Of a stretch of 64,000 nt of DNA, positions 13,919-45,896 are shown piece by piece. The translations under genes and the position numbers were made by a program. This DNA comes from Granulicella sp. (GTDB lineage: Bacteria; Acidobacteriota; Terriglobia; Terriglobales; Acidobacteriaceae). Under the pieces are notes generated by a model that saw nothing but the letters and a program-made list of their open reading frames with translations, did no database searches and was not told where the DNA came from. Numbering within the stretch: the stretch's first letter is position 1; the number at the start of each line of letters is the position of its first letter. The stretch is from contig DAHWNL010000016.1 of the NCBI GenBank assembly GCA_027339965.1, positions 32,001 through 96,000 of the forward strand, given 5' to 3'.

Positions 13919-14731
13919 ATGCCCAGCCCCGTCTCTTCTCCGCTCGCTACGTTCGGCCGCGTCCTCTATGCCCTGTCCCTACTGGGCTTCGGCCTGCAAT
14001 ACGCCATCTACGGCCAGCTCCGGGGCAGTCTTCCGCTGTGCCCGGCGGGGCTGCCGCACCATCACGTCCTAGCCTACGCCCTGGCTGCCGTGCTCATCAG
14101 CTCCAGCCTTTTGCTGCTCTTCTCCTGGCGCACCCTCACCGTCAGCCTGCTTCTTGCTCTTCTGCTGCTGGCTTGCTCGGCGCTCCGTCTGTGGCCGCTA
14201 CACGGCAACCTTAACGACGCCCTGCTCTCTACCTTCAAGGACGCCAACGCCCGCACGCTCTTCCTGCAGTGCCTCTGCTTTGCCGCTGCGGCTATCATCC
14301 TGCATGGCCTTGCCGCAGGGGCCAAAGGCAACTACACCCTGATGCCCGGTCGCATCCTCTTCGCCTTCGCCATGGTCCTCTTCGGATTGCAACACTTTCT
14401 GGACGTGCGCTACCTGGCCACACTGGTTCCACACTGGATTCACGGCCACCATCTCTGGGTGATCGTTACCGGCTTCGCGCTGATCGCCTGCGGGCTCGCC
14501 ATCGCCACCACGATTGAAGACACGTACGCCTCCTACGCTCTCTTCCTGCTCTTTGCAGGATGGCTCGTCCTGCTCCACGCGCCACGCATCCTGCAACATC
14601 CGCGCAGCGGATGGGAGTGGTCCAGCGGCCTGGTGACCCTCGGCCTCAGCGGCGCCTCTTTGCTGCTGGCTGCCGCCTCCGGCGGTGGCGGCAAGCCGGC
14701 CAGGCGGAAAGAACGCCCATGGCGGCCGTAA
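13919..14731 (+). CDS. Integral membrane protein (DoxX-like duplicated domain)
   Basis: About 8 hydrophobic segments; two similar halves (GRVLYALSLLGFGLQY / GRILFAFAMVLFGLQHF). Confidence 0.7.
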   Translation: MPSPVSSPLATFGRVLYALSLLGFGLQYAIYGQLRGSLPLCPAGLPHHHVLAYALAAVLISSSLLLLFSWRTLTVSLLLALLLLACSALRLWPLHGNLNDALLSTFKDANARTLFLQCLCFAAAAIILHGLAAGAKGNYTLMPGRILFAFAMVLFGLQHFLDVRYLATLVPHWIHGHHLWVIVTGFALIACGLAIATTIEDTYASYALFLLFAGWLVLLHAPRILQHPRSGWEWSSGLVTLGLSGASLLLAAASGGGGKPARRKERPWRP

Positions 14732-14844
14732 AACGTTTTCAGTGCAGGTGTAACGCGACGCCTCGATCTCCATGGGCGTTTTCCCCAATGAAAACGCCAC
14801 TGCACGCCCTCTCCGGTGTACCCATCAACACTGAAAATGCTATA
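14729..14844 (+). repeat. Copy 1 of a ~116-bp nested-palindromic MITE-like element
   Basis: TAAAACGTTTTCAGTG...CACTGAAAATGCTATA termini; internal GGCGTTTTC-CCCAAT-GAAAACGCC hairpin; aligns to 33833 and 45782. Confidence 0.93.
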
Positions 14845-14950
14845 GCACTCTGCCCGCGGCGGCGCACAGGAGGCCTTGGCCCGCGCACAGGCTGCGCCCA
14901 TGCAGGACGCCCCTCGAAGACCGGCTCAGGAACATCGATTCAAGGAACTC

Positions 14951-16177
14951 CTAGCCGCCGATCGCCACCAGCCCGGACTCCTCGGCCACGGTCCTCTTCA
15001 ACTGCCCACAGGCCGCGTAAATATCCCGGCCTCGCGGCCGCCGGATGTACGTCGCCACTCCCCCGTCGATCAACGTCTTCTGGAAGACCCCCACGTCCTC
15101 CGGCTCGGGCTGACGGTACCCCATCCCCGGTCCCGGATTCCACACAATCAGGTTCACCTTGGCTCGCATCCCCTTCAGCAGGCGCAGCACCTCCTGCGCA
15201 TGCTGCGGCTGGTCGTTGATTCCACCCAGCAGAACGTACTCGAACGTCACCCACTCCCTGGTTCGCAGCGGAATCTTTCTCACCGCCTCCAGCAGTTGCG
15301 CAATCTTCCACTTGTTGGTGATGGGCATAATCTCCGAGCGCACCTGGTCATTGCTCGCATTCAGGCTGAGAGCCAGCTTGGGCCGCAGCGTTTCGCGAGC
15401 GAAGGCCTCGATCCCCGGCAAAACTCCGCTGGTGGAGACCGTCATCCGCGATTCGGGAACTCCAACTCCCTCCACCAGCAAGCGGACTGCCTTCATAAAT
15501 TCGCTATAGTTCAAAAACGGCTCACCCATGCCCATAAAGACCAGGTTGATGCGGTCCTTGCCCACCTGAATTCGCTGCCGGTTGAGCACCGCCGCAACCT
15601 GCCCGGCGATCTCCCCGGCGGTCAGGTTGCGCCGAATCCCCAGCCTGGCGGTGAGGCAGAACTGACAGTGCACCGCGCATCCCACCTGGCTGGAGATGCA
15701 AATGGTCGCCCGGCGGAAGCCATTCTCCGCCAGCGTTCCGAAGTTTGACCGGTCGCGCCCGTTCGCCCTCCGCTCCCAGAAGGAACGCTTCAGGCCCGAA
15801 ACAGCTTCCACAGCCGTCTCCACGTCGCCTGCCTCCTCTTCGGCCGCCTCGCTTCCGTCGCCGCGCTCCCCGCCGTCCCCATCCGGCATCCACACGGTCT
15901 CAACCGTCTCACCGTCCGCCATCCGCACCAGATACCGCTCCGTGCCATCCACGCTCACCGCGGTCTGCGCCATCATCGGCAGCCCCACATCCCACCCGGC
16001 CGTACTCAACTGCTGGCGCAAAGACTCCGGCAGTGTGGTCACCGCATCTAGCGAGGTCAGACGCTGCCGGTAAATCGCCTCAAAGAGCTGCCGCGCTCGA
16101 TACGGCTTCTGCCCCAGCGCTCCCATGAGCCCGGTCAACTCGGTCAGGTCCATGCCAAAGAGGGCGCGCGTCTCCAT
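14951..16177 (-). CDS. rlmN: 23S rRNA m2A2503 methyltransferase (radical SAM)
   Basis: CISSQVGCAVHCQFC, VFMGMGEP, SLNAS, FEYVLLGGIND, GRDIYAACGQL. Confidence 0.96.
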   Translation of the reverse strand: METRALFGMDLTELTGLMGALGQKPYRARQLFEAIYRQRLTSLDAVTTLPESLRQQLSTAGWDVGLPMMAQTAVSVDGTERYLVRMADGETVETVWMPDGDGGERGDGSEAAEEEAGDVETAVEAVSGLKRSFWERRANGRDRSNFGTLAENGFRRATICISSQVGCAVHCQFCLTARLGIRRNLTAGEIAGQVAAVLNRQRIQVGKDRINLVFMGMGEPFLNYSEFMKAVRLLVEGVGVPESRMTVSTSGVLPGIEAFARETLRPKLALSLNASNDQVRSEIMPITNKWKIAQLLEAVRKIPLRTREWVTFEYVLLGGINDQPQHAQEVLRLLKGMRAKVNLIVWNPGPGMGYRQPEPEDVGVFQKTLIDGGVATYIRRPRGRDIYAACGQLKRTVAEESGLVAIGG

Positions 16178-16183
16178 CCCTTC

Positions 16184-16202
16184 AGTTTACTTCCCCTACA
16201 AT
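16184..16202. promoter_or_regulatory. Back-to-back -10 hexamers (TAAACT on -, TACAAT on +), each 6 nt from a start codon
   Basis: AGTTTA at 16184-16189 and TACAAT at 16197-16202 in a 31-bp gap between divergent ATGs. Confidence 0.55.
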
Positions 16203-16208
16203 CGCTCC

Positions 16209-16619
16209 ATGCCCCAGCCCGGCACCTCTACCCGAACCAGCGCAGAACTTCAAACTGTTCTCGAGGAACTCATCGGCCGCGAGCCTATCTTCCATCGCCC
16301 GGACCGCCCCACCACCATGGCGCCAAGCTACTGGGAGGTGGGCGCCTCCGGCCGCCGCTACAGCCGCGAGTTCATTCTTCAGCACCTGGCAGCGTCTCCT
16401 CCCGCAGACGCCGTTCAGGCCGGCTGGCAGACCTCAGGCCACGCTGTCCTTCGCCTGAGCGCCGACACGTACCTCTTCACCTACACCCTTCGTCAATCCG
16501 AGCGCCTGACCCGCCGCGCAACGATCTGGCGACAAACCTTATCTGGATGGCAAGTTCTGTTTCACCAGGGCACGATCGTCAGCGCCGACGAGGATGATGT
16601 GGCGCCTGCGCAATCATGA
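16209..16619 (+). CDS. DUF4440 / NTF2-like protein
   Basis: REPIFHRP, YWEVGASGRRYSR, TRRATIWR...WQVLFHQGT. Confidence 0.8.
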   Translation: MPQPGTSTRTSAELQTVLEELIGREPIFHRPDRPTTMAPSYWEVGASGRRYSREFILQHLAASPPADAVQAGWQTSGHAVLRLSADTYLFTYTLRQSERLTRRATIWRQTLSGWQVLFHQGTIVSADEDDVAPAQS

Positions 16620-16632
16620 AACAATAGGCGGG

Positions 16633-17961
16633 ATGCCCATCTCCGTTCCCGTCGCCGAGAATGCGACCGTCTCCGCCTCCGCTCCCCACCTGCGTGACAT
16701 CCGCACCACAACCCTTCCCAACGGCCTTCTGGTCATCACGGAGCGCATGCCCCACCTCCGCTCCATCGCTATGGGTGCCTGGATCGACTCCGGCTCTCGC
16801 GACGAGTCTCTGGAGGTGAACGGAATCTCTCACTTCATCGAGCACATGGTCTTCAAAGGAACCACCACGCGCTCCGCCCAGCAGTTTGCCCGCGAGGTGG
16901 ACTCCATCGGCGGCAATCTGGACGCCTTCACCGGCAAGGAGACGATCTGCTTCAGTATCAAGGTCCTGGACCAGAACGTGGCGGCTGCGCTGGATCTGAT
17001 TGCAGACCTGGTCCTCCACCCCACCTTTACCCCGGAAGACATCGCCCGCGAGCAGGGAGTCATTCTGGAAGAGATCAGGATGGATGAGGACAATCCTGAT
17101 TACCTGGTCCACGAACTCTTTACTCGCAACTTCTGGCCCAAAGACGCTCTGGGCCGGCCCATCCTGGGAACGGCTTCCTCCGTCTCCAGCTTCACGCAGC
17201 CGATCGTGCGCTGCGAGTACTCGCGTCGCTTCACCCCGGCAAACATGATCTTCTCGGCCGCCGGAAATCTGCAGCACGAAGCGTTCGTGGCCCAGGTCGC
17301 AGCATCTTTCGCCTCCCTCGCCCCAGGGGGTGCCGAGAAGATGGCCCGCTCCCACAGCCCAAGCCCCTCGCCGCACATCACGCTGCGGAGAAAGAGATCC
17401 CTGGAGCAGGTTCAGCTCTGCCTGGCGGTTGCCGCGCCCCCGGTGGCCTCGCCGCTGCGCTACACGGCTTATCTGCTGAACTCGATTCTGGGTGGCGGTA
17501 TGAGCTCGCGGCTCTTCCAGTCCATTCGCGAAGAACGCGGCCTGGCTTATAGCATCTTCTCCGAACTCAATCCCTTCCGCGATACGGGCTCGCTGGCCGT
17601 CTATGCCGGCTGTTCGCCGGCAAATACGCGCCAGGTACTGGACCTCACGCTCGCCGATCTGACCCGCATCAAGAAACACGCCGTAGCCGGCGAAGAGTTG
17701 CAGCGCGCCAAGTCGCAGTTCAAAGGCAACATGGTCCTCGGCCTGGAGACCTCCGGCTCGCGCATGTCTTCCCTGGCGCGCCAGCAGATGTACTGGGGCC
17801 GGTTCTTTTCCCTCGATGAGATCACCGCCGCCATCGACGCGGTAACCGCGGAGGATATTCAGGCCCTGGCCAATCAGCTCTTTCAGCCCCAGCATCTGGC
17901 CCTGACTCTGCTTGGGAATCTCGGCTCACTCAAGCTGAACCGGACCGACCTTGGCTGCTAG
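16633..17961 (+). CDS. M16 family zinc metallopeptidase
   Basis: GISHFIEHMVFKGT inverted HxxEH motif, ILGGGMSSRLFQSIREERGLAYS. Confidence 0.95.
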   Translation: MPISVPVAENATVSASAPHLRDIRTTTLPNGLLVITERMPHLRSIAMGAWIDSGSRDESLEVNGISHFIEHMVFKGTTTRSAQQFAREVDSIGGNLDAFTGKETICFSIKVLDQNVAAALDLIADLVLHPTFTPEDIAREQGVILEEIRMDEDNPDYLVHELFTRNFWPKDALGRPILGTASSVSSFTQPIVRCEYSRRFTPANMIFSAAGNLQHEAFVAQVAASFASLAPGGAEKMARSHSPSPSPHITLRRKRSLEQVQLCLAVAAPPVASPLRYTAYLLNSILGGGMSSRLFQSIREERGLAYSIFSELNPFRDTGSLAVYAGCSPANTRQVLDLTLADLTRIKKHAVAGEELQRAKSQFKGNMVLGLETSGSRMSSLARQQMYWGRFFSLDEITAAIDAVTAEDIQALANQLFQPQHLALTLLGNLGSLKLNRTDLGC

Positions 17962-18190
17962 CGAACAGTGTTCGGCCTTCCAACTCTATCTCCCCGCGCC
18001 CACCAGGAAGAGCTCTGCATGGCTCCGGCGGCCCAGAAGGCAGCGGCAAGCGCGGGGACGAGGCGAGCCGGACCTTTTACTCCATCCAGCCGAATCGGCC
18101 CCGACGGGAGATGCTGCCATCCCAACGCCGGAAGCGTCTATACTCTGAAACTGGAAGATCTGAGCGCACCTGCGGCTCTTCGAGGCATTC

Positions 18191-18694: not shown

Positions 18695-18714
18695 AACCGC
18701 TGCCGATACCCCGC

Positions 18715-25587: not shown

Positions 25588-26017
25588 AGGGAACCTCCGC
25601 GTGCTTGTCCGGCCCGGCGAAGGCCCGGAGAAGGCCGGGACAAGCCCTTCAAACCTGCGCCGCGCACAGCGGGTCGCGTCTCAGAGTCTCCTCACGCCGC
25701 CACCCTGCCCGGCGAGCTTTTGCGCCTCTTTCCTCAGCTCCGCAAAGATTCCCAGCCGCGCCTTTTGCAGAGCTCCGCTCGATCGTTCCGGCTTTTTTGG
25801 CCAACCCCGCGGTCAGCCCTGCGCTCTCCAGCTCATCTTGCCCCTCTCCTCTCCATCCGACCCGCCATCGCCTTGAACCCATCGTTCCCCGGCCAAACCG
25901 GTGTCGACCGCGCGGAATGATCCAGACGTCCTTCGAAAGCCTGAACAGAACATCAACCGATCGAAGCATATAGAATCTGCCCGCGTCCGCATCCTCGCAG
26001 GCGCATCATATTTAATT

Positions 26018-26227
26018 ATGGCGACACTTTCCTTGCACATCGAGAACATGCACTGCGGGTCCTGCATCCGCCACGTCACTCAGGCCCTCAACACCCTTCC
26101 CGGCACCCACGCCGAAGAGGTCCGCATCGGCAGCGCACGCATTACCACTAGCGCCGAGCCGGAACAGATTCAACAAGCCTTGAAAGCGGCCGGCTATCCG
26201 GCCTTCGTCGATCCGGCCAGTGTATGA
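26018..26227 (+). CDS. HMA-domain copper chaperone (CopZ-like)
   Basis: [16 protein letters not shown]...AGY; overlaps the copA start. Confidence 0.88.
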
Positions 26228-28614
26228 GCGAACAATTCCTCAGCATCCAGGGCATGACCTGCGCCTCGTGCCAGATCCATGTACAGAAGGCGCTGCGGGC
26301 GGTTCCGGGGGTCCAATCTGCCAGCGTCAACCTGATGGCGCACACGGCCCAGATCTCCGCTGAGACGCCCATCGCAGTCGAGACGCTCATTACTGCCGTG
26401 CGAAACTCCGGCTATGACGCCTCTTTGCCTCCGGCCTCCGGCTCGCTCCAGGCTGACTTGTCGCGTGGCTCGGCAACCACAAGCTCCTCCGCCATTGACG
26501 AGCAAGCAGACGCCGGAATGCACTCTCTTGGTCTGCGCGCCGGCCTCGCTCTGGCCGCCGGCGTCATCGCCATGGCTCTGTCGATGCTGCTCTCGAACTC
26601 CGGTACTCTTCCCCCATGGGCGCGCCTGCCTGCGCCGCCCATCCGCTGGCTCCTCTGCATGCTGTCTCTGGCGACCATGCTCTTTGCCGCCCCGGAAATT
26701 TATAGCGCCGCGTGGCGAGCCGCGCGGCATGGCGCCACCAACATGAACACGCTGGTCGCCCTGGGCACGCTGGCCGGCTTCACAGCCTCCTTTGCCGCCA
26801 CCATCGCTCCCGCCTACTGCCTCCGCCACGGGCTCTCTTCCGCGATCTACTACGAAGCGGTGATCTTCATCCTCGCCTTTTTACTCGCCGGCCGCTGGCT
26901 GGAGGCCCGGGCCCGAGCCCGAGCCTCCGGCGCCTTGCGCAGCTTTGCCCGGCTGGAGTCCTCCGACGCCCGCCTACTTGACCCCGCCGCCGGAAATATT
27001 GCCGGCGAAGACTCAGCCCCGGTCGATTACAGCCGTCTTCCCGAAACCATCCTGCCACTCTCCGCCATCGTTCCCAACGATCTGATCCGGGTTCTGCCCG
27101 GCGACCGGATTCCGCTCGACGGTCTCATCGTGGATGGCCGCAGTTCGGTCGACGAGTCCATGCTCACCGGAGAGCCTCTGCCGGTCACCCGCTCCGCCGG
27201 TGATCCCGTCTCCGGTGGCACCCTCAACCTGGATGGACCGCTGGTGATTCAGGCGACAGCCGTTGGACAAGACTCAACGCTGGCGCAGATGCGGCGGCTG
27301 CTGGAGCAGGCGCAGTCCAGCCGCGCTCCCCTGCAACGCCTGGCAGACAGAGCCAGCGCCATCTTCGTCCCCACGGTCCTTACCCTCTCCGCACTCACTT
27401 TTCTGTTCTGGTCGGTTGTCCTGAACACCGGAGGTCACCACGAAGGTTATGGCCGTGCCCTCTCCATGGCGATCTCGGTTCTTATCATCGCTTGCCCTTG
27501 CGCGATGGGGCTGGCCGTCCCGGCCGCGATCACCGTTTCCCTGGGCCGGGCCGCCCAGTCCGGCCTGCTCATCAAAGGGGGCGAAGCCCTGGAACGGCTC
27601 GCTGAAGTGGATACCATCGCTCTGGACAAAACCGGAACCCTCACCGAGGGACGCCCCCGCATCGCAGCCTTCGTTTTGTCCCCAGCCGCCATCCTCGACG
27701 CGCCCACGCTGCTGGCCTGCGCACAGGCCACCGAGCGCCTCTCCACCCATCCGCTGGCGCAAGCCGTGGTCGAGTACGTTCCCTCCGCCGAGCAAACCCT
27801 GGCACTCCCCAGCCCTCCATCCCCACCCACCATCACCGACCACCGCACGCTTCCGGGCATCGGAATCACCGCCACAATCTCCCTGGCCGACGGCAAGACC
27901 CTTCGCCTGGCTCTGGGGAATGCCTCCTTGCTCCCTTCCTCCGGGCTGCATGGTCAAATGGCCGCTGAGCTTCAGCCACCCGGCGACCTGCCCAATGCCA
28001 CACCTCTCTACCTGCTGCTCGACGACATCCCGCAAGCGGTCTTCTTCGCCACCGACGAACTCCGGCCCAGCGCAGGCACGGCCGTAGCCCAACTGGAACG
28101 ACTGCGGGTTCATCCTGTGCTGCTCACCGGCGATGTGGCCTCCTCCGCCAACGCGCTCGCGCGGCAGGCTGGAATCGGCGATGTACACTCCCACCTGCTC
28201 CCAGCGGAGAAACTTGCCGTCATCGGCGCTCTGCAATCCGCAGGCCACAGGGTCGCCATGGCCGGCGACGGCATCAATGACGCGGCGGCGCTCGCCCAGG
28301 CTGACGCCGGCCTGGCCATGGCGTCCGGCTCCGATCTGGCTCGCGAAGCCGGCGACATCCTTCTGCTGCACCCTGATCTCTGCCTGCTCCCGCTCGCCGT
28401 TCGCATCAGCCGGCGCACGGTGAGGATCATGCGCCAGAACCTGGGTTGGGCCATGGTCTACAACCTGATCGGAATTCCTTTGGCCGCCGGCCTCCTCTAC
28501 CCGTACTTTCACATCCTGCTCAGCCCGATCCTCGCCAGCGCCGCCATGGCTCTCAGCTCGGTGAGCGTGCTCACCAACTCACTGCGCCTGCGGTCTTTAC
28601 CCAACGCCCGGTAA
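26224..28614 (+). CDS. copA: Cu(I)-translocating P1B-type ATPase
   Basis: GMTCASC, TGE, CPC, DKTGT, HP, GDGINDA, YN, MALSS. Confidence 0.93.
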
Positions 28615-28691
28615 CCTTCCAACCTTCTCCTGTGTTCTGCGCGCCCGTCTCCACGCGATACACTTAAACCACCGCCGTGGGCGGGTTCAAC

Positions 28692-31076
28692 GTGCGCATC
28701 TTCACCCGCTATATCCTCCGCGAGATCACCGGCTACGCCTTGCTGGGCGGCGTTCTGTTCACCTTCATTCTCTTCATGCGCTACCTGCTTCCGCTCATGG
28801 AGCTCACGGTGCGCGGTATCGCCTCCCCCATGGATATCCTCCGCCTGGTCGGATATCTGCTGCCGGGCTTCTTCTCCTTCACCATCCCCATGGCGGTACT
28901 GGTGGGCATCCTTCTGGGTTTGAGCCGCCTGGCCGCGGACAGTGAAGTCACCGCCATGCGCGCCTCGGGCGTGGGGGTACTCTCCTTCGTCCGCATCGTC
29001 AGCCTCTTCGCCATCGTCTTCTGGATCATCGGCATGGCCAACTCGCTGTATGTGGCGCCCCGCGCCGCAACCGCACTGCTGGCCTACGAGAGCGCCAGCA
29101 AGACCAGCCAGGCCACGGTGGAGGTGCAGCCGCGGGTGTTTTACGAAGACTTCAAGAACTACGTTCTATACGCCCAGGACGTTATCCCGGGAGCCAACGG
29201 CACGGCCATTTGGCGTCATGTCTTCCTGGCCGATCTGAGCAAGCCGGCCAACCCGCACATCATCACCGCCAACAACGCCACCGTTCTCAGCGGAGGCCCA
29301 CAGACCCTTCGCCTGGAACTCTCCAACGGCAGCCGCCATGATATCTCGCTCTCCAATCCCGGGCAGTACGATATCTCCACCTTCCTCAGCACGGAACTGC
29401 CCATGCAAACCGTGCCTCAGGAGGAGGGGTCTCATCTGAGCCGCCGCGACACTCCCATGCACGCCCTCAATACGCGTGACCTGTGGGCTCTGGCCGAAGC
29501 CCCCGGCGCCGCTTCCCGACCCTACCGCATTGAGCTTAACTACCGCTTCGCCTTCCCCACCGCCTGCCTGGTCCTGATGCTGGTCGGTGTTCCACTCGGA
29601 CTCTCCTCCAAACGCGGAGGCAAGGGCGCCGGCTTTGTTGTCACGCTGGGGCTGGTGTTTCTCTACTACTTCCTCTCCTCAATGGGCATTGCCCTGGCCC
29701 GTCAGGACAGGCTTTCCCCGGCTCTGGGGGTGTGGAGCGCCAATCTGCTGTTTGCCATGGCCGGAGTGGTGCTGCTGCAGCAGATCTCCCGTGGCGGGGC
29801 CATGCTGGAGACATTCGCCGGCATCGGCAGAAACCTCACCCGGCTCCTGGATCGTCTCCGCAACCGATCTCAGCCTCATGCTGCCGGTAGCGGTCCCCAT
29901 GTCAATGAAGAGGGCGCGCTCATGCAGCGCCTTCGCCTCGTCTTCGGCATTCACTTCCCCCTCATCCTGGATGAGTACGTGATGGGAAGCTTCCTGCGCA
30001 ACTTCCTGCTGGTTCTGTTCACCCTGATCCTTCTCTTCATCATCTTCACCTTCTTCGAGCTGATCGGCGACATCCTCCGCTACCGCACTCCGCTCTCCGT
30101 GGTGGGCGACTATCTGATCAACCTGATTCCCTTCATCATCAACTCCGTGCTCCCGCTCTGTTCTCTGGTCGCGGTGCTCATCACCTTTGGCGCGCTCAAC
30201 CGCAACAGCGAACTGACGGCGATGAAGTCGGCCGGCGTCAGTCTCTACCGCATCGTTGCTCCCATGCTGGTGGTCGCCACGCTGCTCTCGGCGCTTCTGT
30301 TTGTCTTTGATGAGACCTATCTGCCGGGAGCCAACCGCCGGCAGGAGGCTTTGCTGTCCCAGATCAAGGGGAAGCCGGCGCAGACATTTCTTCGTCCGGA
30401 TCGCAAATGGATGTCCGGCGACACCACGGACGCCAAGGGCGGGCAGATGCAGCCAACCCGCATCTTTTATTACCAGTTCTTCGATCCTGACCGCAACATC
30501 TTCGACAACCTCACTGTCTTTGAGTTTCAGCCCGGCACCTTCAATCTCACCCGCCGCATCTTTGCGCGCAGCGTTCGCTGGGACGACAAGCTCAACCAGT
30601 GGGTCTTTGAAGATGGCTGGCAACGCACCTTCGCGGGTGAATCGATTACCAGCTACCAGCCCTTCACGCTGGCCACCTTTCCGGAGATCCACGAGCAACC
30701 CAGTTACTTCAAGAAGGAAGAACTCCAAAGCCAGGAGATGTCCTTCACCGAGCTCTCCCGTTACATACGCGACCTTGAACAGAGCGGCTTTGACACCATG
30801 CGTCTGCGCGTTCAACTCAACCGCAAGCTGGCCTATCCGCTCATGACGCTGGTGCTGGCCATTCTGGCCATTCCGTTCTCGCTGTTCGCCGGCAAGCGGG
30901 GCGGCATCGCGGGCATCGGCACGGCGATCGGAGTCGCCATCTGCTACTGGGTCATCGCCGGCATCTTCGAGAATCTGGGCGACGTCAACTCGCTTCCGGC
31001 GATCCTGGCCGCGTGGTCCCCGGATATGCTCTTCGCCATGGCCGGAGCTTATCTTCTGCTCCGCACCCCCACCTGA
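28692..31076 (+). CDS. Fused LptF-LptG LPS export ABC permease
   Basis: Two YjgP/YjgQ units in one frame: RYILREI...RLAADSEVTAMRASG and ILDEYVMGSF...LNRNSELTAMKSAG...AAWSPD. Confidence 0.9.
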   Translation: MRIFTRYILREITGYALLGGVLFTFILFMRYLLPLMELTVRGIASPMDILRLVGYLLPGFFSFTIPMAVLVGILLGLSRLAADSEVTAMRASGVGVLSFVRIVSLFAIVFWIIGMANSLYVAPRAATALLAYESASKTSQATVEVQPRVFYEDFKNYVLYAQDVIPGANGTAIWRHVFLADLSKPANPHIITANNATVLSGGPQTLRLELSNGSRHDISLSNPGQYDISTFLSTELPMQTVPQEEGSHLSRRDTPMHALNTRDLWALAEAPGAASRPYRIELNYRFAFPTACLVLMLVGVPLGLSSKRGGKGAGFVVTLGLVFLYYFLSSMGIALARQDRLSPALGVWSANLLFAMAGVVLLQQISRGGAMLETFAGIGRNLTRLLDRLRNRSQPHAAGSGPHVNEEGALMQRLRLVFGIHFPLILDEYVMGSFLRNFLLVLFTLILLFIIFTFFELIGDILRYRTPLSVVGDYLINLIPFIINSVLPLCSLVAVLITFGALNRNSELTAMKSAGVSLYRIVAPMLVVATLLSALLFVFDETYLPGANRRQEALLSQIKGKPAQTFLRPDRKWMSGDTTDAKGGQMQPTRIFYYQFFDPDRNIFDNLTVFEFQPGTFNLTRRIFARSVRWDDKLNQWVFEDGWQRTFAGESITSYQPFTLATFPEIHEQPSYFKKEELQSQEMSFTELSRYIRDLEQSGFDTMRLRVQLNRKLAYPLMTLVLAILAIPFSLFAGKRGGIAGIGTAIGVAICYWVIAGIFENLGDVNSLPAILAAWSPDMLFAMAGAYLLLRTPT

Positions 31077-31145
31077 TGCCCGGTCCGGGCCAACTCTTCG
31101 GCCAACTCCCCGGCCAAGACTCGATCGGCTACACTAAAAATCGAC

Positions 31146-31883
31146 ATGAAAACTTCAAGCCTCCCTTGTTGCACGCTCGTCATGGCATTGGCTGCGCTCC
31201 CCATCGGAGCGCAAACCTCCACCACCCACCCCATTCACCATACAGCCGCGCACAGCGCCCATACCCCGGGCTGCGTCGCCCCGCCGCGGGTCTCCCCCAA
31301 GATTCCAGCGCTTCCATCCAACGCACCCTGCCCACGCATCCTCTATACCCTCACCCACATTCCGGACACCCATCTGGACTACGCCTCGCCTCTGCTCAGC
31401 AAAGATCTGCGTGAGGAGCTCTCCGGACAGAAGTCCACGTACTCGCTCATCTATGTTGACACCCAAGTTGGAACCGGCCCGGTGGCCCAGAGCGGCAAGT
31501 TCCTCACCGTGCACTATACCGGGTACCTGACCGACGGCAAAAAGTTCGACTCTTCCGTGGACCGCGGCCAACCCATTACCTTTCCCTACGGCCGGCACCG
31601 CGTGATTCCGGGCTGGGACACTGGCTTTGAGGGCATGCGCATCGGCGGAAAGCGCCGTCTCTACATCCCCTACCAGCTTGCCTATGGTGAAGCCGGCCGC
31701 CCACCCATCATTCCAGCCAGAGCAGAGCTGGTCTTCGATGTACAACTCATCGGTCAGAGTGACGAGATGCCCAAGCCCACGGTGCCCTTCCGCCGCTCCG
31801 CGCCGGCCCAGCCCGCGTCCAAACCGGCCACCCCAGCAAAACCCGCCACCTCCCAGCCCGCCAACCCGCAGGCCCCCAAATAG
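31146..31883 (+). CDS. FKBP-type peptidyl-prolyl isomerase, secreted
   Basis: Signal peptide; VHYTGYLTDGKKFDSSVDRG, VIPGWD, IPYQLAYG; Pro/Ala-rich tail. Confidence 0.93.
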   Translation: MKTSSLPCCTLVMALAALPIGAQTSTTHPIHHTAAHSAHTPGCVAPPRVSPKIPALPSNAPCPRILYTLTHIPDTHLDYASPLLSKDLREELSGQKSTYSLIYVDTQVGTGPVAQSGKFLTVHYTGYLTDGKKFDSSVDRGQPITFPYGRHRVIPGWDTGFEGMRIGGKRRLYIPYQLAYGEAGRPPIIPARAELVFDVQLIGQSDEMPKPTVPFRRSAPAQPASKPATPAKPATSQPANPQAPK

Positions 31884-32005
31884 TCGAAGCGCAGGGATTC
31901 AAGCGTAGAGTGTCGAGAAGACGGCGATACTCGAATTGCAGTTTTGCCGGAAGCCTTATCCTTCTTCCTGGCGCTCTACGCTCCACCCTTTTTCTTCTTT
32001 CCTTT

Positions 32006-33835
32006 ATGTTCTCCCGCTTGAGGCCGCTGTTTCCGTATCTTCGCCGTTACTGGCGGAACCTGCTCGCAGGCGGCCTGGCTCTGATCGTCTACAACACCTC
32101 CAAGGCCATGATTCCGCTGCTCATCGGCGGAGCCATGAATGACATCCAACGCAACCTCTCGGCGTCCAGAGTGGAACACGCCGCCCTTCGCCTTGTCTCG
32201 ATTGCCGGGCTGGCCGCGATCGCCCTCTATCTCACCCGCCGAATCATCATCGGCGCCTCTCGTGAGATCGAGTTCGATCTCCGCAATGACATCTTCTCCC
32301 ACCTCTGCCGGCAACCCGCCGAGTTCTTCCAGCGCCACCGCACCGGCGACATTATGGCGCGCACCACCAATGACCTGAGCGCGGTTCGGCAGTTGCTGGG
32401 ACCGGCCATCATGTACTCGGCAAATACCCTGGTCTTTACCGCCCTGGCGCTGCCCTTCATGCTCCGGATTTCGCCGCGGCTCACGCTGTTCGCCTTTCTT
32501 CCGCTTCCCTTCGCTTCCGTGCTGGTGCAATACTTCGGAGCTCGCATCCACACCCGCTTCGAACGCATCCAGGCCATGTTCTCCGACATCACTGCACAAG
32601 CTGAGGAGAGCTTCTCCGCGGCGCGCCTGATCCGCGCCTTTGCTCAGGAGGATGCGCAGATTGACACCTTCGAGACCTCCAATCAGGAGTACATTCGCCG
32701 CAGCCTGCTGCTGGCCCGGCTGATGGCGATGCTCTGGCCAACGCTCGAACTGGTGCTCGGCCTCTCGCTGGTGGTCAGCCTTCTGGTCGGCGGCCATGAA
32801 GTTGTCCTGCATCACATCAATGTGGGTCAATTCACAACCTACATGGTCTTCATGGTTCAACTCACCTGGCCTATGATCGCCATTGGCTGGGTGGTCAACC
32901 TGGTGCAGCGCGGCACCGCCTCCGTCATCCGCATCCATGAGTTGATGACGGAGCAGCCCAGCATCGATGACCGTTACGCTGATCCCGCCCTGGCGCAGAG
33001 CAGCGCCGGCATGGCCACGCGGGACGGAGACTGCGTTGCAGAGAACCGCCTGCCACCCATCGCGGGCCACATCGCCTACCGTCACCTTCACTTCGCCTAC
33101 CCAACCGGCCCAGAGGTTCTGCATGACATCACCCTCGAGATACCAGCCGGCTCCTCACTGGCCATCGTCGGCCCCACAGGCAGCGGAAAGTCAACGCTCG
33201 TCTCTCTGATCCCACGCCTCTACGATCCGTCGCCATCCTTCCGCAACGCCATTACGCTGGACGGACGCCCCCTGCACCAATACCCCCTCCACATGCTCCG
33301 CGCAGCCATCGGCTTCGTTCCTCAGGAGACATTCCTCTTCTCCACCAGCATTGCCAAGAACATCGCCTTCGGAGTTCCGGCGCCGCCCGGCCAGGAGGCG
33401 GCCCTAGAGCAACAGGTGGAGGCTGCGGCCCGCATCGCCCAGATCGCCGACGAGATTCTGGAGTCTCCAAGCGGCTTCCGCACCATCGTTGGCGAGCGCG
33501 GCATCACGCTCTCAGGCGGCCAGAAACAGCGCACAGCCATCGCCCGCGCCATCCTCGCCAATCCGCCCATCCTGATCCTGGACGATGCTCTCTCCAGTGT
33601 GGACACTTACACCGAAGAACGAATCCTTGCCGGCCTGCAAACGCTGATGCGTGGCCGTACCACCCTTTTGATCGCCCACCGCGTTTCGACCGCCCGCAAT
33701 GCGGACCGCATCGCGGTGCTCATCAAGGGCCGCATCGCCGAGTTAGGCACCCATGAAGAACTCCTCGCCCGCGGCGGCTATTACACCGACCTCTTTGAAA
33801 AGCAGTCTCTTGAAGAGGAGATACTGACGACGTAG
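32006..33835 (+). CDS. ABC exporter, fused permease/ATP-binding (MdlA-like)
   Basis: TM domain, GPTGSGKST, LSGGQKQR, ILDDALSSVD, IAHR. Confidence 0.93.
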   Translation: MFSRLRPLFPYLRRYWRNLLAGGLALIVYNTSKAMIPLLIGGAMNDIQRNLSASRVEHAALRLVSIAGLAAIALYLTRRIIIGASREIEFDLRNDIFSHLCRQPAEFFQRHRTGDIMARTTNDLSAVRQLLGPAIMYSANTLVFTALALPFMLRISPRLTLFAFLPLPFASVLVQYFGARIHTRFERIQAMFSDITAQAEESFSAARLIRAFAQEDAQIDTFETSNQEYIRRSLLLARLMAMLWPTLELVLGLSLVVSLLVGGHEVVLHHINVGQFTTYMVFMVQLTWPMIAIGWVVNLVQRGTASVIRIHELMTEQPSIDDRYADPALAQSSAGMATRDGDCVAENRLPPIAGHIAYRHLHFAYPTGPEVLHDITLEIPAGSSLAIVGPTGSGKSTLVSLIPRLYDPSPSFRNAITLDGRPLHQYPLHMLRAAIGFVPQETFLFSTSIAKNIAFGVPAPPGQEAALEQQVEAAARIAQIADEILESPSGFRTIVGERGITLSGGQKQRTAIARAILANPPILILDDALSSVDTYTEERILAGLQTLMRGRTTLLIAHRVSTARNADRIAVLIKGRIAELGTHEELLARGGYYTDLFEKQSLEEEILTT

Positions 33836-33950
33836 AGCGTTGTTAGTGTAGGTGTAACGCGACGCCTCAACCTCCATGGGCGTTTTCCCCAATGAAAACG
33901 CCACTGCACACGCCCTCTCCGGTATACCCAGCAACACTGAAAACGCTGTA
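33833..33950 (+). repeat. Copy 2 of the nested-palindromic MITE-like element
   Basis: TAGAGCGTTGTTAGTG...CACTGAAAACGCTGTA; same 33-nt core. Confidence 0.93.
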
Positions 33951-34400
33951 GAGCGGAGCCGGGATGGCTGCACCAGACAGAATTGCTACAGGAAATCCCG
34001 TTGCTTTCCGTGCAGGGAACGAGAAGACGGCCCTGGGGCGTGCCTGTTCGGTCGATCTGCAGGTAAGGATTTGCAAGGCAGACCGGCCCAGCAAGGGAGA
34101 CTCTCGCCAGCCGGCCATGCGCTTTGGCGCCAGCTGAGAGTATGCGCCCAAGCTGCGCCGGCAGAAGGGAGCCGCGGGGTAGAAGGCGCCTGTCCTGCCG
34201 TCGCGGTATGGAGTCCGCAGCAAGGTAGCCGAAGCGATCAAGATGCACATGCTCGGCTTGATCAAGTTCCGGCTCAACTTGGCTCCGCCCCCAAGCCATC
34301 GCGGAAGCACTCCAGAAGATCTTGGCGGGCGATCCGCATGCCGGGTTCAGGCTCACCCTCCAATGACTACTGCGAGGATGAAACGGCTCGAACGGCTTCT

Positions 34401-41122: not shown

Positions 41123-41167
41123 ATCCCTGTCCATCCTTGAAGGCGGTCCGCCCAAATCTCGACTAAC

Positions 41168-41204: not shown

Positions 41205-41342
41205 TTTTATGATGAGAAATCTCCCTCCGAAGTTGCAAAAACTCCGGCCAGAGCCCCCACCACTTCCAAATCCTTCCCCGCGCGCTGCAACTCTGTACCC
41301 ATCCGGACGGAAGCAGGCATGGACCGTCCCGAACCGTGGTAC

Positions 41343-42623
41343 TCAATCTCCTGGCTTGCGCCCCAACGTCAAAAAGTATCCCAGCAGCAGCAGCGACGCC
41401 AGAGCACCCATCACCGCCTCGGTTCCGGGCAATCCCCTGACGCCAAATCGGCTCCCGCCCCACCCGTCCAGCGCGAGCATGTACACCACCGGCACGTTTC
41501 CCATCGAGTTGATAATGGCATAACGGCTGCTCCCACTCTTGCCGGAGCTGCCGAGAAACTCCAGCACCACGGCAGTAAACATCGCATAGCCCATGCCGAC
41601 CGTCAGCAGATAAAGCGCAACCCCAACATAATAAGTATCTTGCCGCAATGGACCCAGAGAAAGCACCGCCAGCGTCGCGGCGTTTGCCAGGGCTACTGTC
41701 AGATAGGCCACTGAGGCTCGAATCCGCGCCGGGATCAACGTTGCCGCCAGCGACCCGGCAGCCATCAACAACGCTCCGCCCAGCCCATTCATCCACGCCA
41801 CCTGTTGTCCGCCCACGCCATACCTCCGTGCGACACCCGTCAGCAGCCCAACCGCCGCCCCGGTGGCCAGCGGAGAGAGCATCAACACGGTGTACGGCAG
41901 GGCGCGCCAGTTGAAAAAGGTTCCGTGAAACTCCTCCCAGATCCGGCGCAGCGTGCGCCCGATGCCGTGCTCAACTAACAGTTCCTGCCGAGGCGCCGCC
42001 AGGGCAAAGAACGCCGGCGCCACAATCAGGAGCCCGGCGACCCAAGGGATCCTTGCCTCTTCTCCACGCTCCCGGAGCATCAGCAGCACCAGCACCGATG
42101 CCGCGCCAAACCCCAGTCCTCCGCCCTGGTAAAACCCTCCAGCCACGCGTTTGGCACGCTCGTTCCGCAACGCTCCCAACATTCCGCCACAACTGGAGAC
42201 CACCAACTGCGCCGCACAGGCGCTGAAGAACATCAACGCCACTGAGATGCGGCCATCCAGCCGCCGCTGTTGCAACGCCAGCACCATCCCCAATGCGGCC
42301 GCAACGGAACTGATCAGAAGCCAGGTTCTGCGCCGCACCAGAAAATCGGTGATCGGGCTCCACAAAAAATAGATCGTCGTCGGCAGGGCGAGCAAAGAGA
42401 TGATCTGCGACGCGCGCAGCTCCGGAACTCCCTGGCGGCTCAACAGAAACGCCAGAGCTCCGCCTTGGAGTACCCCGTTGGCAACCACCGCGACCGGGGC
42501 CACCAGCAGCCCGAACAACCACGGTCGCTCCCGCGGCCAAACCGCATCTGCCGCCGCCGTTCCGGACTGCTCCAGCGCGCGCGCCGCAACCCCATCTTCT
42601 GCCGGATCTTCCATCTCCCGCAT
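41343..42623 (-). CDS. MFS transporter (AmpG-like)
   Basis: About 12 TM segments; LPTTIYFLWSPITD..RRR.W motif. Confidence 0.8.
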   Translation of the reverse strand: MREMEDPAEDGVAARALEQSGTAAADAVWPRERPWLFGLLVAPVAVVANGVLQGGALAFLLSRQGVPELRASQIISLLALPTTIYFLWSPITDFLVRRRTWLLISSVAAALGMVLALQQRRLDGRISVALMFFSACAAQLVVSSCGGMLGALRNERAKRVAGGFYQGGGLGFGAASVLVLLMLRERGEEARIPWVAGLLIVAPAFFALAAPRQELLVEHGIGRTLRRIWEEFHGTFFNWRALPYTVLMLSPLATGAAVGLLTGVARRYGVGGQQVAWMNGLGGALLMAAGSLAATLIPARIRASVAYLTVALANAATLAVLSLGPLRQDTYYVGVALYLLTVGMGYAMFTAVVLEFLGSSGKSGSSRYAIINSMGNVPVVYMLALDGWGGSRFGVRGLPGTEAVMGALASLLLLGYFLTLGRKPGD

Positions 42624-42679
42624 CGCTGAGATGCTACCATCTCCTCCCGGTCTTCTCTTTCCATCTTCTCTTCTCGTCA

Positions 42680-42708
42680 TTGACGCACGCCTCGGAAGTT
42701 ACTAGGCT
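42680..42708 (+). promoter_or_regulatory. Sigma70-type promoter, probably leaderless
   Basis: TTGACG-17 nt-TAGGCT, ATG 7 nt downstream (42716), no Shine-Dalgarno. Confidence 0.6.
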
Positions 42709-42715
42709 GTGCCCA

Positions 42716-44038
42716 ATGGCTTCGGACAAGATGATCCCCGCATCGGCCCCGGGTGACGCTCCGGGAGGTTCCAGCACCGCATCTCGCCAGGTCTCCTCAA
42801 CCCACCCCCAGCCCCCCGGCTCCGGCCCATCGGCTCCCAGGGCACGGCGCGACGCCGCTCTGGATGGACTTCGCGGGCTGGCCGTATTGATGGTCTTCCT
42901 CTTCCACTACGGAGGCGGCTTGCAATCCTCCCGGCCCGCAGTCCATCTCTTCGGACTGTTCACCCAGGCAGGCTGGCTGGGGGTGGTTCTCTTCTTCGCG
43001 CTCTCCGGCTTTCTCATCACCGGCAGCCTGTGGGATACCGTCGCCCAGGGGCACCACCTGCGCAACTTTTACGCTCGCCGCGCCCTGCGCATTCTGCCCA
43101 TCTACAGCCTTGCCCTGCTGGCCGCCGCCGGCGCCGCTCTGCTCCGTGGCGCCACCCTGGCTCAACTCAAGCCGTTTGCCATCTTTGCCTTCTTTCTTCA
43201 GAATCTTCCTCATCTGGCCGCCGCCGCCATACAAAACCCCTCCCCTCTGCCCCTCTATCACTTTTGGACCCTGGCCGTGGAGGAGCAGTTCTATCTCCTC
43301 TGGCCACTTATCCTGCTCTTCGCCCACAGCCGCCGCCATGCTCTTCGCCTCAGCCTCTGGTTCTTCGCCATCACCCTGTTCTTTCTGCTCTCCATCTACG
43401 CCATGCCGGCCTTTGCCGGAGTCCGCGCCCATCACCTCTTCGACTACTTCCTGCTCACCCAGAGCGGCGCCATCGCCCTGGGCTGCGCGGCCTCTCTGGC
43501 CATGGGTAGCCGCTACAGTCCCAGCGGTCGCAAGCCCGGAACTCACCGGCTGATCCGGAAGTACGCCCTGCCCGGGTTCTTCACTGGATCCGCCATCTAT
43601 CTCTACACCAGCTACCTCTCCGGAAGTCTCTACCTCACCGATCCACTCCAGTTCTGGCTCGGACTACCCGCCATAAGCGTTGCGGCCGCAGCCTCCATCC
43701 CTCTGGTCCTTCGCCCCGGGCTTCTGCGCCGGATCTTTTCCAATCCGCTGCTTGGATGGATGGGCCGCATCAGTTACGGCTTCTACGTCTACCACATCCT
43801 GCTTCAGCCGCTGTTTGACAATCTGGGCGCCCATTACAGCCACCAGACCACCGGGAACGACTATCACATCGTCCGCGCCCTGTTCGCCCTTTTGATCACC
43901 TGCATCGTCTCCTGGCTCTCTTTCACCTTCTTTGAGCAACCCATCCTCTCCCTCAAGAGATACTTCCCCCTGTCTCCCGCTTTGCCTTGGGGAGAGCCCC
44001 TTCCGGAGACCCACCGCTCGCACCGTCATCCAATCTGA
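42716..44038 (+). CDS. Acyltransferase family 3 (OafA-like O-acyltransferase)
   Basis: LDGLRGLAVLMVFLFH, GVVLFFALSGFLIT, FYARRALRILP, HFWTLAVEEQFYLLWP, GRISYGFYVYH, FEQP. Confidence 0.93.
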   Translation: MASDKMIPASAPGDAPGGSSTASRQVSSTHPQPPGSGPSAPRARRDAALDGLRGLAVLMVFLFHYGGGLQSSRPAVHLFGLFTQAGWLGVVLFFALSGFLITGSLWDTVAQGHHLRNFYARRALRILPIYSLALLAAAGAALLRGATLAQLKPFAIFAFFLQNLPHLAAAAIQNPSPLPLYHFWTLAVEEQFYLLWPLILLFAHSRRHALRLSLWFFAITLFFLLSIYAMPAFAGVRAHHLFDYFLLTQSGAIALGCAASLAMGSRYSPSGRKPGTHRLIRKYALPGFFTGSAIYLYTSYLSGSLYLTDPLQFWLGLPAISVAAAASIPLVLRPGLLRRIFSNPLLGWMGRISYGFYVYHILLQPLFDNLGAHYSHQTTGNDYHIVRALFALLITCIVSWLSFTFFEQPILSLKRYFPLSPALPWGEPLPETHRSHRHPI

Positions 44039-44197
44039 ATACGGTACGAAGATTAAACTGGTGCCTTCGCCTTCCCTGAAACATCCAATCGTTGAATAGC
44101 AAAGCTGGGTGAGAGCCGATCCGTCCTGCGTGAACCTGTCTTCACCTGCCAGACATGACCCGGAACCTTCTGCCAGAGAGTTGAGAATTCGTCCAAC

Positions 44198-45784
44198 ATG
44201 GCCACCGCTACCGCCCCCGGCCCCGACATCCAAAGTGAGGTTACGCATGGCTTCAATCCCTGGTGGATCGCGGCCGCCGTCATGCTGGCCACCTTCATGG
44301 AGGTACTGGACACATCGATCGCCTCGGTTGCTCTTCCCTATATCGCGGGCTCTCTTTCGGCCTCCACAGACGAGGCTACCTGGGTTCTTACCAGCTATCT
44401 GGTCTCCAATGCTATCTTCCTGCCAGCTTCCAACTGGCTCTCGCTCAAGTTCGGACGCAAGAACTTCCTGATGACCTGTGTGGCCATCTTCACTTTGTCC
44501 AGCTTCGCCTGCGGAGCAGCCCCCTCGCTGGCCCTTCTGCTGCTCTTCCGGGTCATCCAAGGTGCCGGCGGCGGGGCTTTACAGCCCATCTCTCAAGCTG
44601 TGCTGCTGGAGAGCTTCCCTCCCATCAAACGTGGGGCAGCCATGGCCGTCTTTGCCCTGGGCGTGGTGGTAGCTCCCGTTCTCGGCCCCACCCTCGGCGG
44701 CTGGCTCACCGACACCTACTCCTGGCGCTACGCCTTCTACATCAATATCCCCGTCGGCATCTTGGCCCTGTACATGATCAACCGGTACATCCATGATCCG
44801 TCCTACATCCGCAACGCCAAGGTCTCTCGCTTCGACAGCCTCGGCTTCGGATCCCTGGTGATCTGGGTCGGCTGTCTGCAGGTGATTCTGGATAAAGGCC
44901 AGGAGTCAGACTGGTTCGGCGCCATATGGATCCGCTGGGCCTTCGCCGTCATGGTCATCGCCCTGGTCATCTTCATCTATCAGTCGTTTTGGGGCAAGCA
45001 GCCCCTGGTGAATCTGCGCGTTCTCAAGGACCGCAACTTCCTGGTGGGCTTCAGCCTCATCTTCCTCTTTGGCATCGCCATCTACTCCACCATCGTCATC
45101 CTTCCCCTCTTCTATCAGGAATTGATCGGCTACACCGCCTACACCGCCGGCCTGGTGGTGGCTCCGCGCGGCCTGGGAGCCATCCTGGCCATGCCCGTGA
45201 TCGGCTATCTCTCCAACAAGGTGGACGCTCGCCGCCTGCTCACCTTCGGCTTTGTCACCTTTGGCCTCACCAGCTTGTACTTTGGCTCCATCACCCTGGG
45301 AATCTCACCCTGGACGCTTTTTCTCCCCATCCTGATCACCGGCTTCGGTCTCAGCTTCGTCTTCGTGCCCATCAACACCGCCGCCTATGGCAAACTCGCC
45401 AACGAGCAGATCGGCAATGCCAGCGGGCTCTTCAACCTGATGCGAAACGTCGGCGGCTCCATCGGCATCTCCATCGCCACCACGCTGCTGACTCGCCGGA
45501 CCGACGCCCACCAGAATGAGCTCACTAACTACATCCCGCAGTCGGGCGCAGCCTTCCAGCACTCCCTGCACGTCACCAAAGACTTCCTCAAAGCCTACTT
45601 CGGCTCCGCCAATGCAGAACACGCCGCACGCTTCACGCTCTATCAGCAACTCAACCAGCAGGCCTCCTACTGGGCCTTTATCGATGTCTTCCGCTGGACC
45701 TCCCTGCTCAGCTTCGCCTGCGTCATCGTGGTCTGGTTCTTCCAGCGCGTCAAACCAGGCCGAGGGCCATCCGGAGCCCACTAA
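44198..45784 (+). CDS. DHA2/EmrB-family MFS efflux permease
   Basis: FMEVLDTSIASVALP, WVLTSYL, FRVIQGAGGG, APVLGPTLGGWLTD..SWR..FYINIPVG. Confidence 0.95.
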   Translation: MATATAPGPDIQSEVTHGFNPWWIAAAVMLATFMEVLDTSIASVALPYIAGSLSASTDEATWVLTSYLVSNAIFLPASNWLSLKFGRKNFLMTCVAIFTLSSFACGAAPSLALLLLFRVIQGAGGGALQPISQAVLLESFPPIKRGAAMAVFALGVVVAPVLGPTLGGWLTDTYSWRYAFYINIPVGILALYMINRYIHDPSYIRNAKVSRFDSLGFGSLVIWVGCLQVILDKGQESDWFGAIWIRWAFAVMVIALVIFIYQSFWGKQPLVNLRVLKDRNFLVGFSLIFLFGIAIYSTIVILPLFYQELIGYTAYTAGLVVAPRGLGAILAMPVIGYLSNKVDARRLLTFGFVTFGLTSLYFGSITLGISPWTLFLPILITGFGLSFVFVPINTAAYGKLANEQIGNASGLFNLMRNVGGSIGISIATTLLTRRTDAHQNELTNYIPQSGAAFQHSLHVTKDFLKAYFGSANAEHAARFTLYQQLNQQASYWAFIDVFRWTSLLSFACVIVVWFFQRVKPGRGPSGAH

Positions 45785-45896
45785 AGCAGTTTCAGTGCAG
45801 GTGTATCCAACGCCTGGACGTCTATGGGCGTTTTCCCCAATGAAAACGCCACTGCAAGCCCTCTTTGGGACACCCATCAACACTGAAAATGCTATA
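45782..45896 (+). repeat. Copy 3 of the nested-palindromic MITE-like element
   Basis: TAAAGCAGTTTCAGTG...CACTGAAAATGCTATA; same 33-nt core. Confidence 0.93.

What the first reader, a model, noticed from the sequence alone, without database searches (positions are those of the whole stretch)
14729..45896. A ~116-bp repeat family that starts exactly on stop codons (copies at 14729, 33833, 45782)
Seen: three homologous 115-118 bp elements with imperfect 16-bp terminal inverted repeats (consensus about TANAGCRTTTTCAGTG...CACTGAAAAYGCTRTA), each bounded by TA. In all three the first TA is the TA of the upstream gene's stop codon (TAA 14729, TAG 33833, TAA 45782). All have the same orientation relative to that gene and lie between convergent genes. 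Known: TA-flanked non-autonomous elements are typical of IS630/Tc1-mariner-mobilised MITEs, and TA is rare in GC-rich DNA, so stop codons are natural targets. Inference: an abundant, possibly uncatalogued lineage-specific element that grafts a structured 3' UTR onto genes. No transposase is present in the window.
Basis: partly seen in the sequence, partly recalled or inferred. Interest (0 to 1): 0.85.

Follow-up and report, generated by a model that had tools for sequence, protein, structure and literature searches.

The report
Jumping repeat filtered by stop codons
These three repeats are copies of a short mobile DNA element present about 85 times in this genome and in related bacteria, likely moved by an IS630-type transposase; about a third sit on stop codons, and there they survive only in an orientation that still reads as a stop, which likely reflects weeding-out of harmful insertions rather than a designed gene tail.

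Summary
Confirmed: three 115-118 bp copies start on the TA of TAA/TAG stops between convergent genes. The genome holds 85 near-intact copies; only 27 start on a stop, 17 of those convergent. Empty sites in relatives show a single dinucleotide, so the element is mobile with a 2-bp, mostly TA, duplication. Its ends match multi-copy IS630 elements of this genome and genus. The family spans Acidobacteriaceae. The orientation rule is a filter: genes run into element ends that read as a stop in 92 of 304 cases, into ends that do not in 0 of 216; a sister subfamily with TAG at both ends sits on stops both ways round. Most of the stop enrichment disappears once the C-TA-R target motif is controlled. 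No strand-specific RNA structure was found, so a selected 3' UTR role is unsupported. One anomaly remains: mismatched terminal dinucleotides fall at one end (18 against 1), which simple target duplication does not predict. Verdict: new member of the IS630-type MITE kind.

The parts
14729..14844 (+). MITE copy 1, subfamily A (114 bp plus duplicated TA); first three bases TAA are the stop of ORF 13919-14731, replacing an ancestral TAG
   Evidence: empty site with a single TAG in G059 and G005
14729..14744 (+). left terminal inverted repeat of copy 1 with left TA; resembles the right end of the IS630 elements
14775..14798 (+). central 9-bp inverted repeat with 6-nt loop, the most conserved part of the family; arms repeat the terminal motif
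14829..14844 (+). right terminal inverted repeat of copy 1; read inward it begins TAT, not a stop
33833..33950 (+). MITE copy 2, subfamily A, 118 bp; starts on the TAG of the ABC transporter gene ending 33835
   Evidence: G059 has a subfamily D copy at the same TA, reversed, with the adjoining spacer missing
33879..33902 (+). central inverted repeat of copy 2
45782..45896 (+). MITE copy 3, subfamily B, 115 bp; starts on the TAA of the EmrB-type gene ending 45784
   Evidence: no element after the stop in G005, G019, G007; reversed subfamily D copy at this site in G059
45827..45850 (+). central inverted repeat of copy 3
14951..14953 (-). TAG stop of rlmN: empty here, occupied by a subfamily D copy in G059 with TA on both sides

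Best explanation
The element is a non-coding mobile repeat that inserts at a dinucleotide, usually TA, and duplicates it; it is likely moved in trans by a two-ORF IS630-family transposase, and its one-way seat on stop codons likely comes from purifying selection, not from a function. Shown: mobility, 2-bp duplication, end similarity to IS630, and that genes run only into ends that read TAA/TAG/TGA. Inferred: the transposase prefers (G)C-TA-R; CTAG is depleted 2.5-fold in this genome, so TAA/TAG stops are a large share of the tolerated targets. In subfamilies A and B the left end reads TAA/TAG and the right end TAT, so a reversed insertion would add a 24- or 38-residue tail to the protein and is purged; subfamilies with TAG at both ends are kept both ways round.
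For: Empty sites: copy 1; 29 of 60 G059 subfamily D copies map to a 2-base gap in G000, 18 could not be measured, 13 gave other gaps; of 36 clean D sites 24 are TA/TA on TA and 3 duplicate TG or CA. IS630: DDE_3 hits at 6 places in G000; one element has orfA (HTH, under cut-off), an A8 run, orfB (DDE_3, 111.6 bits), 9 left and 7 right ends at contig breaks; IS630 ends in G020 and G000 share TAGA(G/C)CAT and in G020 also TTT-N7-GGTGTA with the MITE left end. Filter: G000 27 left-end stops against 3 right-end stops, all 3 with right ends changed to TAA/TAG; pooled 92 of 304 against 0 of 216; G019 12 of 31 against 0 of 32; D 15 of 58 against 18 of 57; G007 3 of 22 against 4 of 22. Read-through lengths 24 or 38 codons in 40 of 52 TAT-ended copies. 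Per-site occupancy of stops against TA sites within 100 bp downstream of genes: 4.2-fold for bare TA, 1.3-1.5-fold and not significant with motif control.
Against: Transposition by this enzyme was not shown. The G000 IS630 shares only 8-9 terminal bases with the A/B copies, and is not assembled whole. Its DNA matched only 4 of 61 genus genomes: G020 has the best-matching ends but no MITE hit, and MITE-rich G003, G005, G007, G019 gave no DNA match (no protein-level search there). The motif control counts all copies against motif sites and A/B are kept in one orientation only, so a 2-3-fold real preference for stops is not excluded. Flanks are asymmetric (C before 71 of 85, G after 48 of 85) and terminal dinucleotides vary mainly at one end, neither expected from the ISY100 mechanism. 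Gene calls are from my own dicodon model. Genomes are kin, so pooled P values overstate.
Confidence: 0.8

Rival explanations
1. The element is kept, or targeted, at stop codons because its folded RNA acts as a 3' UTR module (stability, cleavage or termination), as proposed for ERIC and Correia repeats.
For: Copies fold far better than shuffles (z -4.1 to -5.3 on the + strand); terminal stem positions 13/104 and 14/103 covary (52 pairs against 24.6 expected, 47 against 26.4); a residual stop enrichment is not excluded; ERIC precedent (PMC2229807, passages).
Against: Both strands fold alike across 30 diverse copies (mean z -5.4 and -4.9; top better in 18 of 30); G-U does not exceed A-C (42 against 66 terminal, 10 against 16 central); no U-tract after stop copies; TAG/TAG subfamilies sit both ways; sites are not conserved: of 30 G000 sites mapped in G059 only 2 share the old copy. 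Covariation follows subfamilies, so few events, and suits a DNA inverted repeat.
Confidence: 0.1
2. Same family and same selective filter, but the transposition step differs from ISY100: the end equivalent to the IS right end brings two donor bases into the target, giving a mismatch that repair settles either way (mostly away from TA).
For: In TAG/TAG-type copies mixed ends are NN/TA 18, TA/NN 1, matched NN/NN 7, TA/TA 69, other 1, although both ends have the same sequence context. D copies differ by only 0.7% per site. In 6 of 7 clean NN/TA sites the empty allele is TA, 3 of them stops. At non-stop G000 sites 9 of 10 empty alleles are not TA, two giving TA left and the empty allele right. The G000 IS630 itself has TA at 9 of 9 left ends and 5 of 7 right ends.
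Against: TA is unstable here: 26% of 700 aligned intergenic TA differ between G000 and G059, 32% of 87 in C-TA-R context, 57% of 165 coding YTAR; P for 8 of 9 runs from 7e-4 to 0.05. No TA/NN class in D, which unbiased repair would give. G059 is a 67% complete assembly. No circle junction seen in 8 runs of contigs. Linkage of end variants to internal variants is weak (2 of 4 copies with one variant; about P 0.06 by hand).
Confidence: 0.2
3. The element is moved by a non-IS630 enzyme (HUH/Y1 or IS110-type) that inserts next to an oriented target without true duplication.
For: Oriented flank preference CGC|TA-R; strong hairpins; one-sided end variation.
Against: True duplication of non-TA targets (TG/TG twice, CA/CA once with matching empty allele); terminal, not subterminal, inverted repeats; bipartite match to IS630 ends. 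I did not search the genome for Y1 or IS110 enzymes.
Confidence: 0.05

Closest known systems
ERIC / MITEEc1 / MITEPlu5 (enterobacterial IS630-type MITEs)
   Same: About 120 bp, TA at both termini, TA duplication, strong fold, ends similar to a subset of IS630 elements (PMC6267812 and PMC2229807, passages)
   Different: Unrelated sequence, GC-rich, Acidobacteriaceae host; no strand-specific RNA evidence here. That ERICs often abut stop codons is my recall of De Gregorio 2005, not read.
RUP of Streptococcus pneumoniae
   Same: 107 bp, TA target, TIR like IS630-Spn1, enriched between convergent genes, read as parasitic; associated with IS elements (PMC2229807, PMC3049150, passages)
   Different: RUP is AT-rich with stops in all frames; this element has an open antisense frame of 38 codons and an invariant central inverted repeat.
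BOX elements of S. pneumoniae
   Same: Supply the stop codon of 36 genes (PMC3049150, passage)
   Different: Modular, linked to ISSpn2; no stop-reading versus non-stop-reading end contrast was described in the passages seen.
ISY100 (IS630/Tc1/mariner) mechanism
   Same: Cut-and-paste into TA with duplication; rare non-TA targets are duplicated (34 of 39 TA, 2 AA/TT; PMC2170065, abstract and passages)
   Different: ISY100 has one ORF and flanking TAs are not carried; here the likely enzyme has two ORFs with a slippery A run, and mixed ends occur at one side.
Two-ORF IS630 elements of rhizobia (ISRm2011-2-like; name recalled)
   Same: orfB is 48-49% identical to proteins annotated 'IS630 family transposase' on Sinorhizobium and other plasmids
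   Different: Their ends were not compared; subgroup assignment untested.

Membership tests
Bacterial MITE | short, no transposase, terminal inverted repeats | tested here: met
   115-118 bp, about 16-bp TIR
Bacterial MITE | multi-copy and dispersed | tested here: met
   85 strong, 52 weaker copies; at least 66 near-identical D copies in G059
Bacterial MITE | target site duplication shown by empty sites | tested here: met
IS630-mobilised MITE | TA duplication, CTAG-like target | tested here: met
   24 of 36 clean D sites TA/TA on TA, 3 duplicate TG or CA, 9 discordant; C before and purine after
IS630-mobilised MITE | TIR similar to an IS630 element of the host lineage | tested here: met
   match is 8-9 bp for the G000 element, bipartite for G020 elements
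IS630-mobilised MITE | cognate transposase co-occurs with the MITE | tested here: inconclusive
   present in G000 and, weakly, G059; DNA search negative in other MITE-rich genomes, positive in G020 which gave no MITE hit
IS630-mobilised MITE | mobilisation by the transposase in trans | not testable with these tools
   needs an assay
ISY100-type cut-and-paste | both flanks always equal the target dinucleotide | tested here: inconclusive
   18 NN/TA against 1 TA/NN, but TA is unstable in this lineage
ERIC, Correia, RUP, BOX, REP (named families) | sequence homology to the described repeat | not tested
   no Rfam match; ISfinder and the MITE catalogue of PMC11602168 (supplementary files) were not searched
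Cis-acting 3' UTR RNA element or intrinsic terminator | strand-specific conserved structure, U-tract, conserved position | tested here: not met
   the first internal hairpin was not properly tested (register mismatch); no expression data

The most novel reading that the evidence does not exclude
This IS630 subgroup does not simply duplicate its target: one transposon end carries two donor bases into the new site, so insertion can rewrite the junction dinucleotide, an asymmetric, piggyBac-like step not described for bacterial IS630; the MITE bursts (about 50 copies per Mb in G059) give a natural read-out of it and of selection against C-terminal protein tails.
Probability: 0.2. Interest if true: 0.7.

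Novelty: new member of a known kind. Interest (0 to 1): 0.4.

Why it matters
It adds an apparently undescribed, recently active MITE family of Acidobacteriaceae with a candidate transposase, and it gives an unusually clean natural experiment: one base at the element's end (TAG or TAT) decides whether insertions at stop codons survive in one or both orientations. That warns against reading orientation bias of repeats at gene ends as regulatory function. If the one-sided end variation is mechanistic, it would revise the view that all IS630 elements transpose like Tc1/mariner.

Tried and rejected
Rfam: no family. RNA-level function: RNAalifold on 58 representatives kept only part of the central stem; no strand preference. 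Terminator: no U-tract; outward extended -10 box in only 2 of 85. Flank CGC as part of the element: rejected, it is present in empty alleles. 3- or 4-bp duplication: rejected, third base and first flank base are unlinked. Read-through insertions missed by the gene caller: looked for directly, none. Sequencing runs: no RNA holder listed; contigs of 8 runs showed no empty allele or circle junction, which shows nothing about rare forms. Earlier findings: three look-ups returned nothing. Literature: nine searches listed no paper describing this family or one-sided end carry-over in IS630; most subscription papers are outside the library. Five named record sets were left out as likely duplicates of genomes already counted; copies with poor end matches or low scores were also dropped there.
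Full report
Observation. The first TA of each is the TA of a stop: ORFs end at 14731, 33835 and 45784. Two are an MsbA-like ABC transporter and an EmrB-type transporter; the first has no family but is conserved with its stop in relatives. The downstream genes face them. None of the window ORFs scanned is a transposase and Rfam finds only a tRNA.

Genome-wide picture. A profile finds 139 places at E<=1e-3 in the 3.8-Mb assembly, one at E 0.68 in the reversed control (output partly cut). Of 137 with complete ends, 85 are strong. Using my own dicodon gene model, 27 of 85 start on a same-strand stop, 17 of these between convergent genes and 10 between tandem genes; 58 do not start on a stop. Three more have an opposite-strand gene ending on the right-hand TA, and all three have right ends changed so that they read TAA or TAG; one further gene ends on a TAG two bases inside. 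Away from stops there is no orientation bias (15 against 15 in tandem contexts). Two subfamilies, A (116 bp) and B (115 bp), are each about 4.5% diverged. Flanks read (C)GC before and a purine after.

Mobility. In G059 (about 97% identical in genes) and G005 the site of copy 1 holds a single TAG, so insertion duplicated TA and turned TAG into TAA. G059 carries a sister subfamily D with perfect ends reading TAG both ways, at least 66 copies differing by 0.7% per site, about 53 per Mb in untargeted loci (8 in 150 kb). Of 60 D copies examined, 29 map to a 2-base gap in G000, 18 could not be measured and 13 gave other gaps. The family was found in 7 of 24 genomes of the genus and 0 of 16 of another family of the order, and an exact 24-base core occurs in 51 stretches of records titled Granulicella, Terriglobus, Bryocella or unnamed Acidobacteria, one titled Pseudomonadota. 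The host is therefore inferred to be an Acidobacteriaceae member.

Mobiliser. DDE_3 hits six places in G000. One IS630 element is multi-copy and split at contig ends: 9 left ends and 7 right ends, an HTH-bearing orfA below Pfam cut-off, an A8 run, and a DDE_3 orfB 48-49% identical to annotated IS630 transposases. Its ends begin TAGA(G/C)CA and it also inserts at Y-TA-R. Related IS630 elements in G020 carry TAGA(G/C)CATTTT and, seven bases on, a GGTGTA-like box, as the MITE left end does. Against a tidy pairing, the DNA search found this element in only 4 of 61 genomes; G020 gave no MITE hit. Mobilisation by IS630 is thus inferred from ends and target, not shown.

Why stops, and why one way. 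CTAG occurs 1755 times against 4362 expected. Per site, stops are occupied 4.2 times more than TA sites within 100 bp downstream of genes, but only 1.3-1.5 times (P 0.26-0.40) when C-TA-R, GC-TA-R or CTAG sites are compared; because A/B survive in one orientation only, a 2-3-fold true preference is not excluded. For orientation I asked, for every element end in all genomes, whether an open best-coding frame runs into it: 92 of 304 ends that read as a stop, 0 of 216 that do not. G019, with TAA/TAT ends like G000, gives 12 of 31 against 0 of 32; D gives 15 of 58 against 18 of 57; G007 3 of 22 against 4 of 22. Mapping D copies on G000 gene calls agrees: 11 same, 13 opposite, 4 both, 24 neither, 8 unmapped. 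A reversed A or B copy would extend the protein by 38 or 24 residues. The simplest reading, inferred, is that such insertions happen and are purged. The genomes are kin, so the counts are not independent.

RNA function. The copies fold well, as MITEs do (PMC2229807, passages), but both strands fold alike, G-U pairs do not outnumber A-C, there is no U-tract, and sites are rarely shared between close relatives. Covariation is limited to terminal repeat positions 13-14 and follows subfamilies. The central inverted repeat is nearly invariant across genera without covariation and repeats the terminal motif, which suggests a DNA-binding site (inference). No RNA run was available. Incidental effects on single transcripts, as reported for ERIC (PMC2229807, PMC3049150, passages), stay possible.

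An anomaly. Under the ISY100 mechanism both flanks equal the target (PMC2170065, abstract and passages). Among 96 TAG/TAG-type copies 69 are TA/TA, 7 matched non-TA, 18 non-TA left with TA right, 1 the reverse, 1 other. Of 36 clean D sites, 3 duplicate TG or CA, 6 are non-TA/TA on a TA allele (3 of them stops), 1 is TG/TA on TG, 2 are TA/TA on CA. For G000 copies, 8 of 9 stop sites have TA in the empty allele (one ambiguous) but 9 of 10 non-stop sites do not, two showing TA left and the empty allele right. TA is unstable here (26% of intergenic TA differ between G000 and G059, 32% in C-TA-R; 57% of coding YTAR), so P for 8 of 9 (one ambiguous site left out) lies between 7e-4 and 0.05. The left-right asymmetry is not explained by drift. 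My best guess is carry-over of two donor bases at one end with biased repair, like non-canonical piggyBac insertions (recalled; only a search listing seen); I give it 0.2.

Comparison and verdict. It works like ERIC/MITEPlu5 and RUP (PMC6267812, PMC2229807, PMC3049150, passages) and meets the testable criteria of an IS630-type MITE; it is not shown to be any named family. Nine literature searches listed no description, but ISfinder and the supplementary catalogue of 1.4 million MITEs of PMC11602168 (passages seen, supplements not) were not searched and may hold it. PMC1590033 (passages) added nothing specific. New member of a known kind; interest 0.4.

Noticed in passing
G000 contig ends C24, C51, C43, C50; also G059 locus L148: Another multi-copy IS (IS5-like by its ends and target; label recalled, untested) sits directly against MITE ends in four places; a third IS abuts a degenerate copy at C86.
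   Followed up: no
G059 orthologues of G000 C41:37932, C25:30640, C76:16547, C34:5695, C34:47546, C45:11425, C81:65833, C81:77782: At least 8 of 30 mapped G000 sites hold a subfamily D copy at the same TA in G059, some reversed: target reuse or replacement. Ascertainment is partly biased towards element-bearing loci.
   Followed up: partly
G059 loci L053, L054, L055, L069, L073, L144, L145; window 33951-34400: D copies often coincide with loss of 46-1869 bp of adjoining DNA relative to G000, as if the element causes adjacent deletions.
   Followed up: partly
G000 C38:11645, C2:12745, C45:61144, C49:1031, C88:163: Longer, older variants carry an extra REP-like hairpin of about 30-40 bp in the central loop.
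   Followed up: no
window about 25929-33828 (C81:57929-65828) against C44; also C25/C44, C88/C81, C8/C86, C77/C44: Blocks of 4-12 kb occur twice in the assembly at 82-89% identity, suggesting contigs of a related organism in the bin or old duplications; one block ends just before copy 2.
   Followed up: no
G000 C73 end, C78 start: A second two-ORF IS630-like element with TAGACCAT ends, the end type of subfamily D.
   Followed up: partly
window 13919-14731: 270-aa ORF without Pfam or NCBIfam match, conserved next to rlmN in several genus members.
   Followed up: no
L127; G000 C17:60200-60428; G059 L056, L071: Copies inserted at the terminal TA of older copies, giving tandem arrays.
   Followed up: no
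window 4247-4320 (-): tRNA gene.
   Followed up: no
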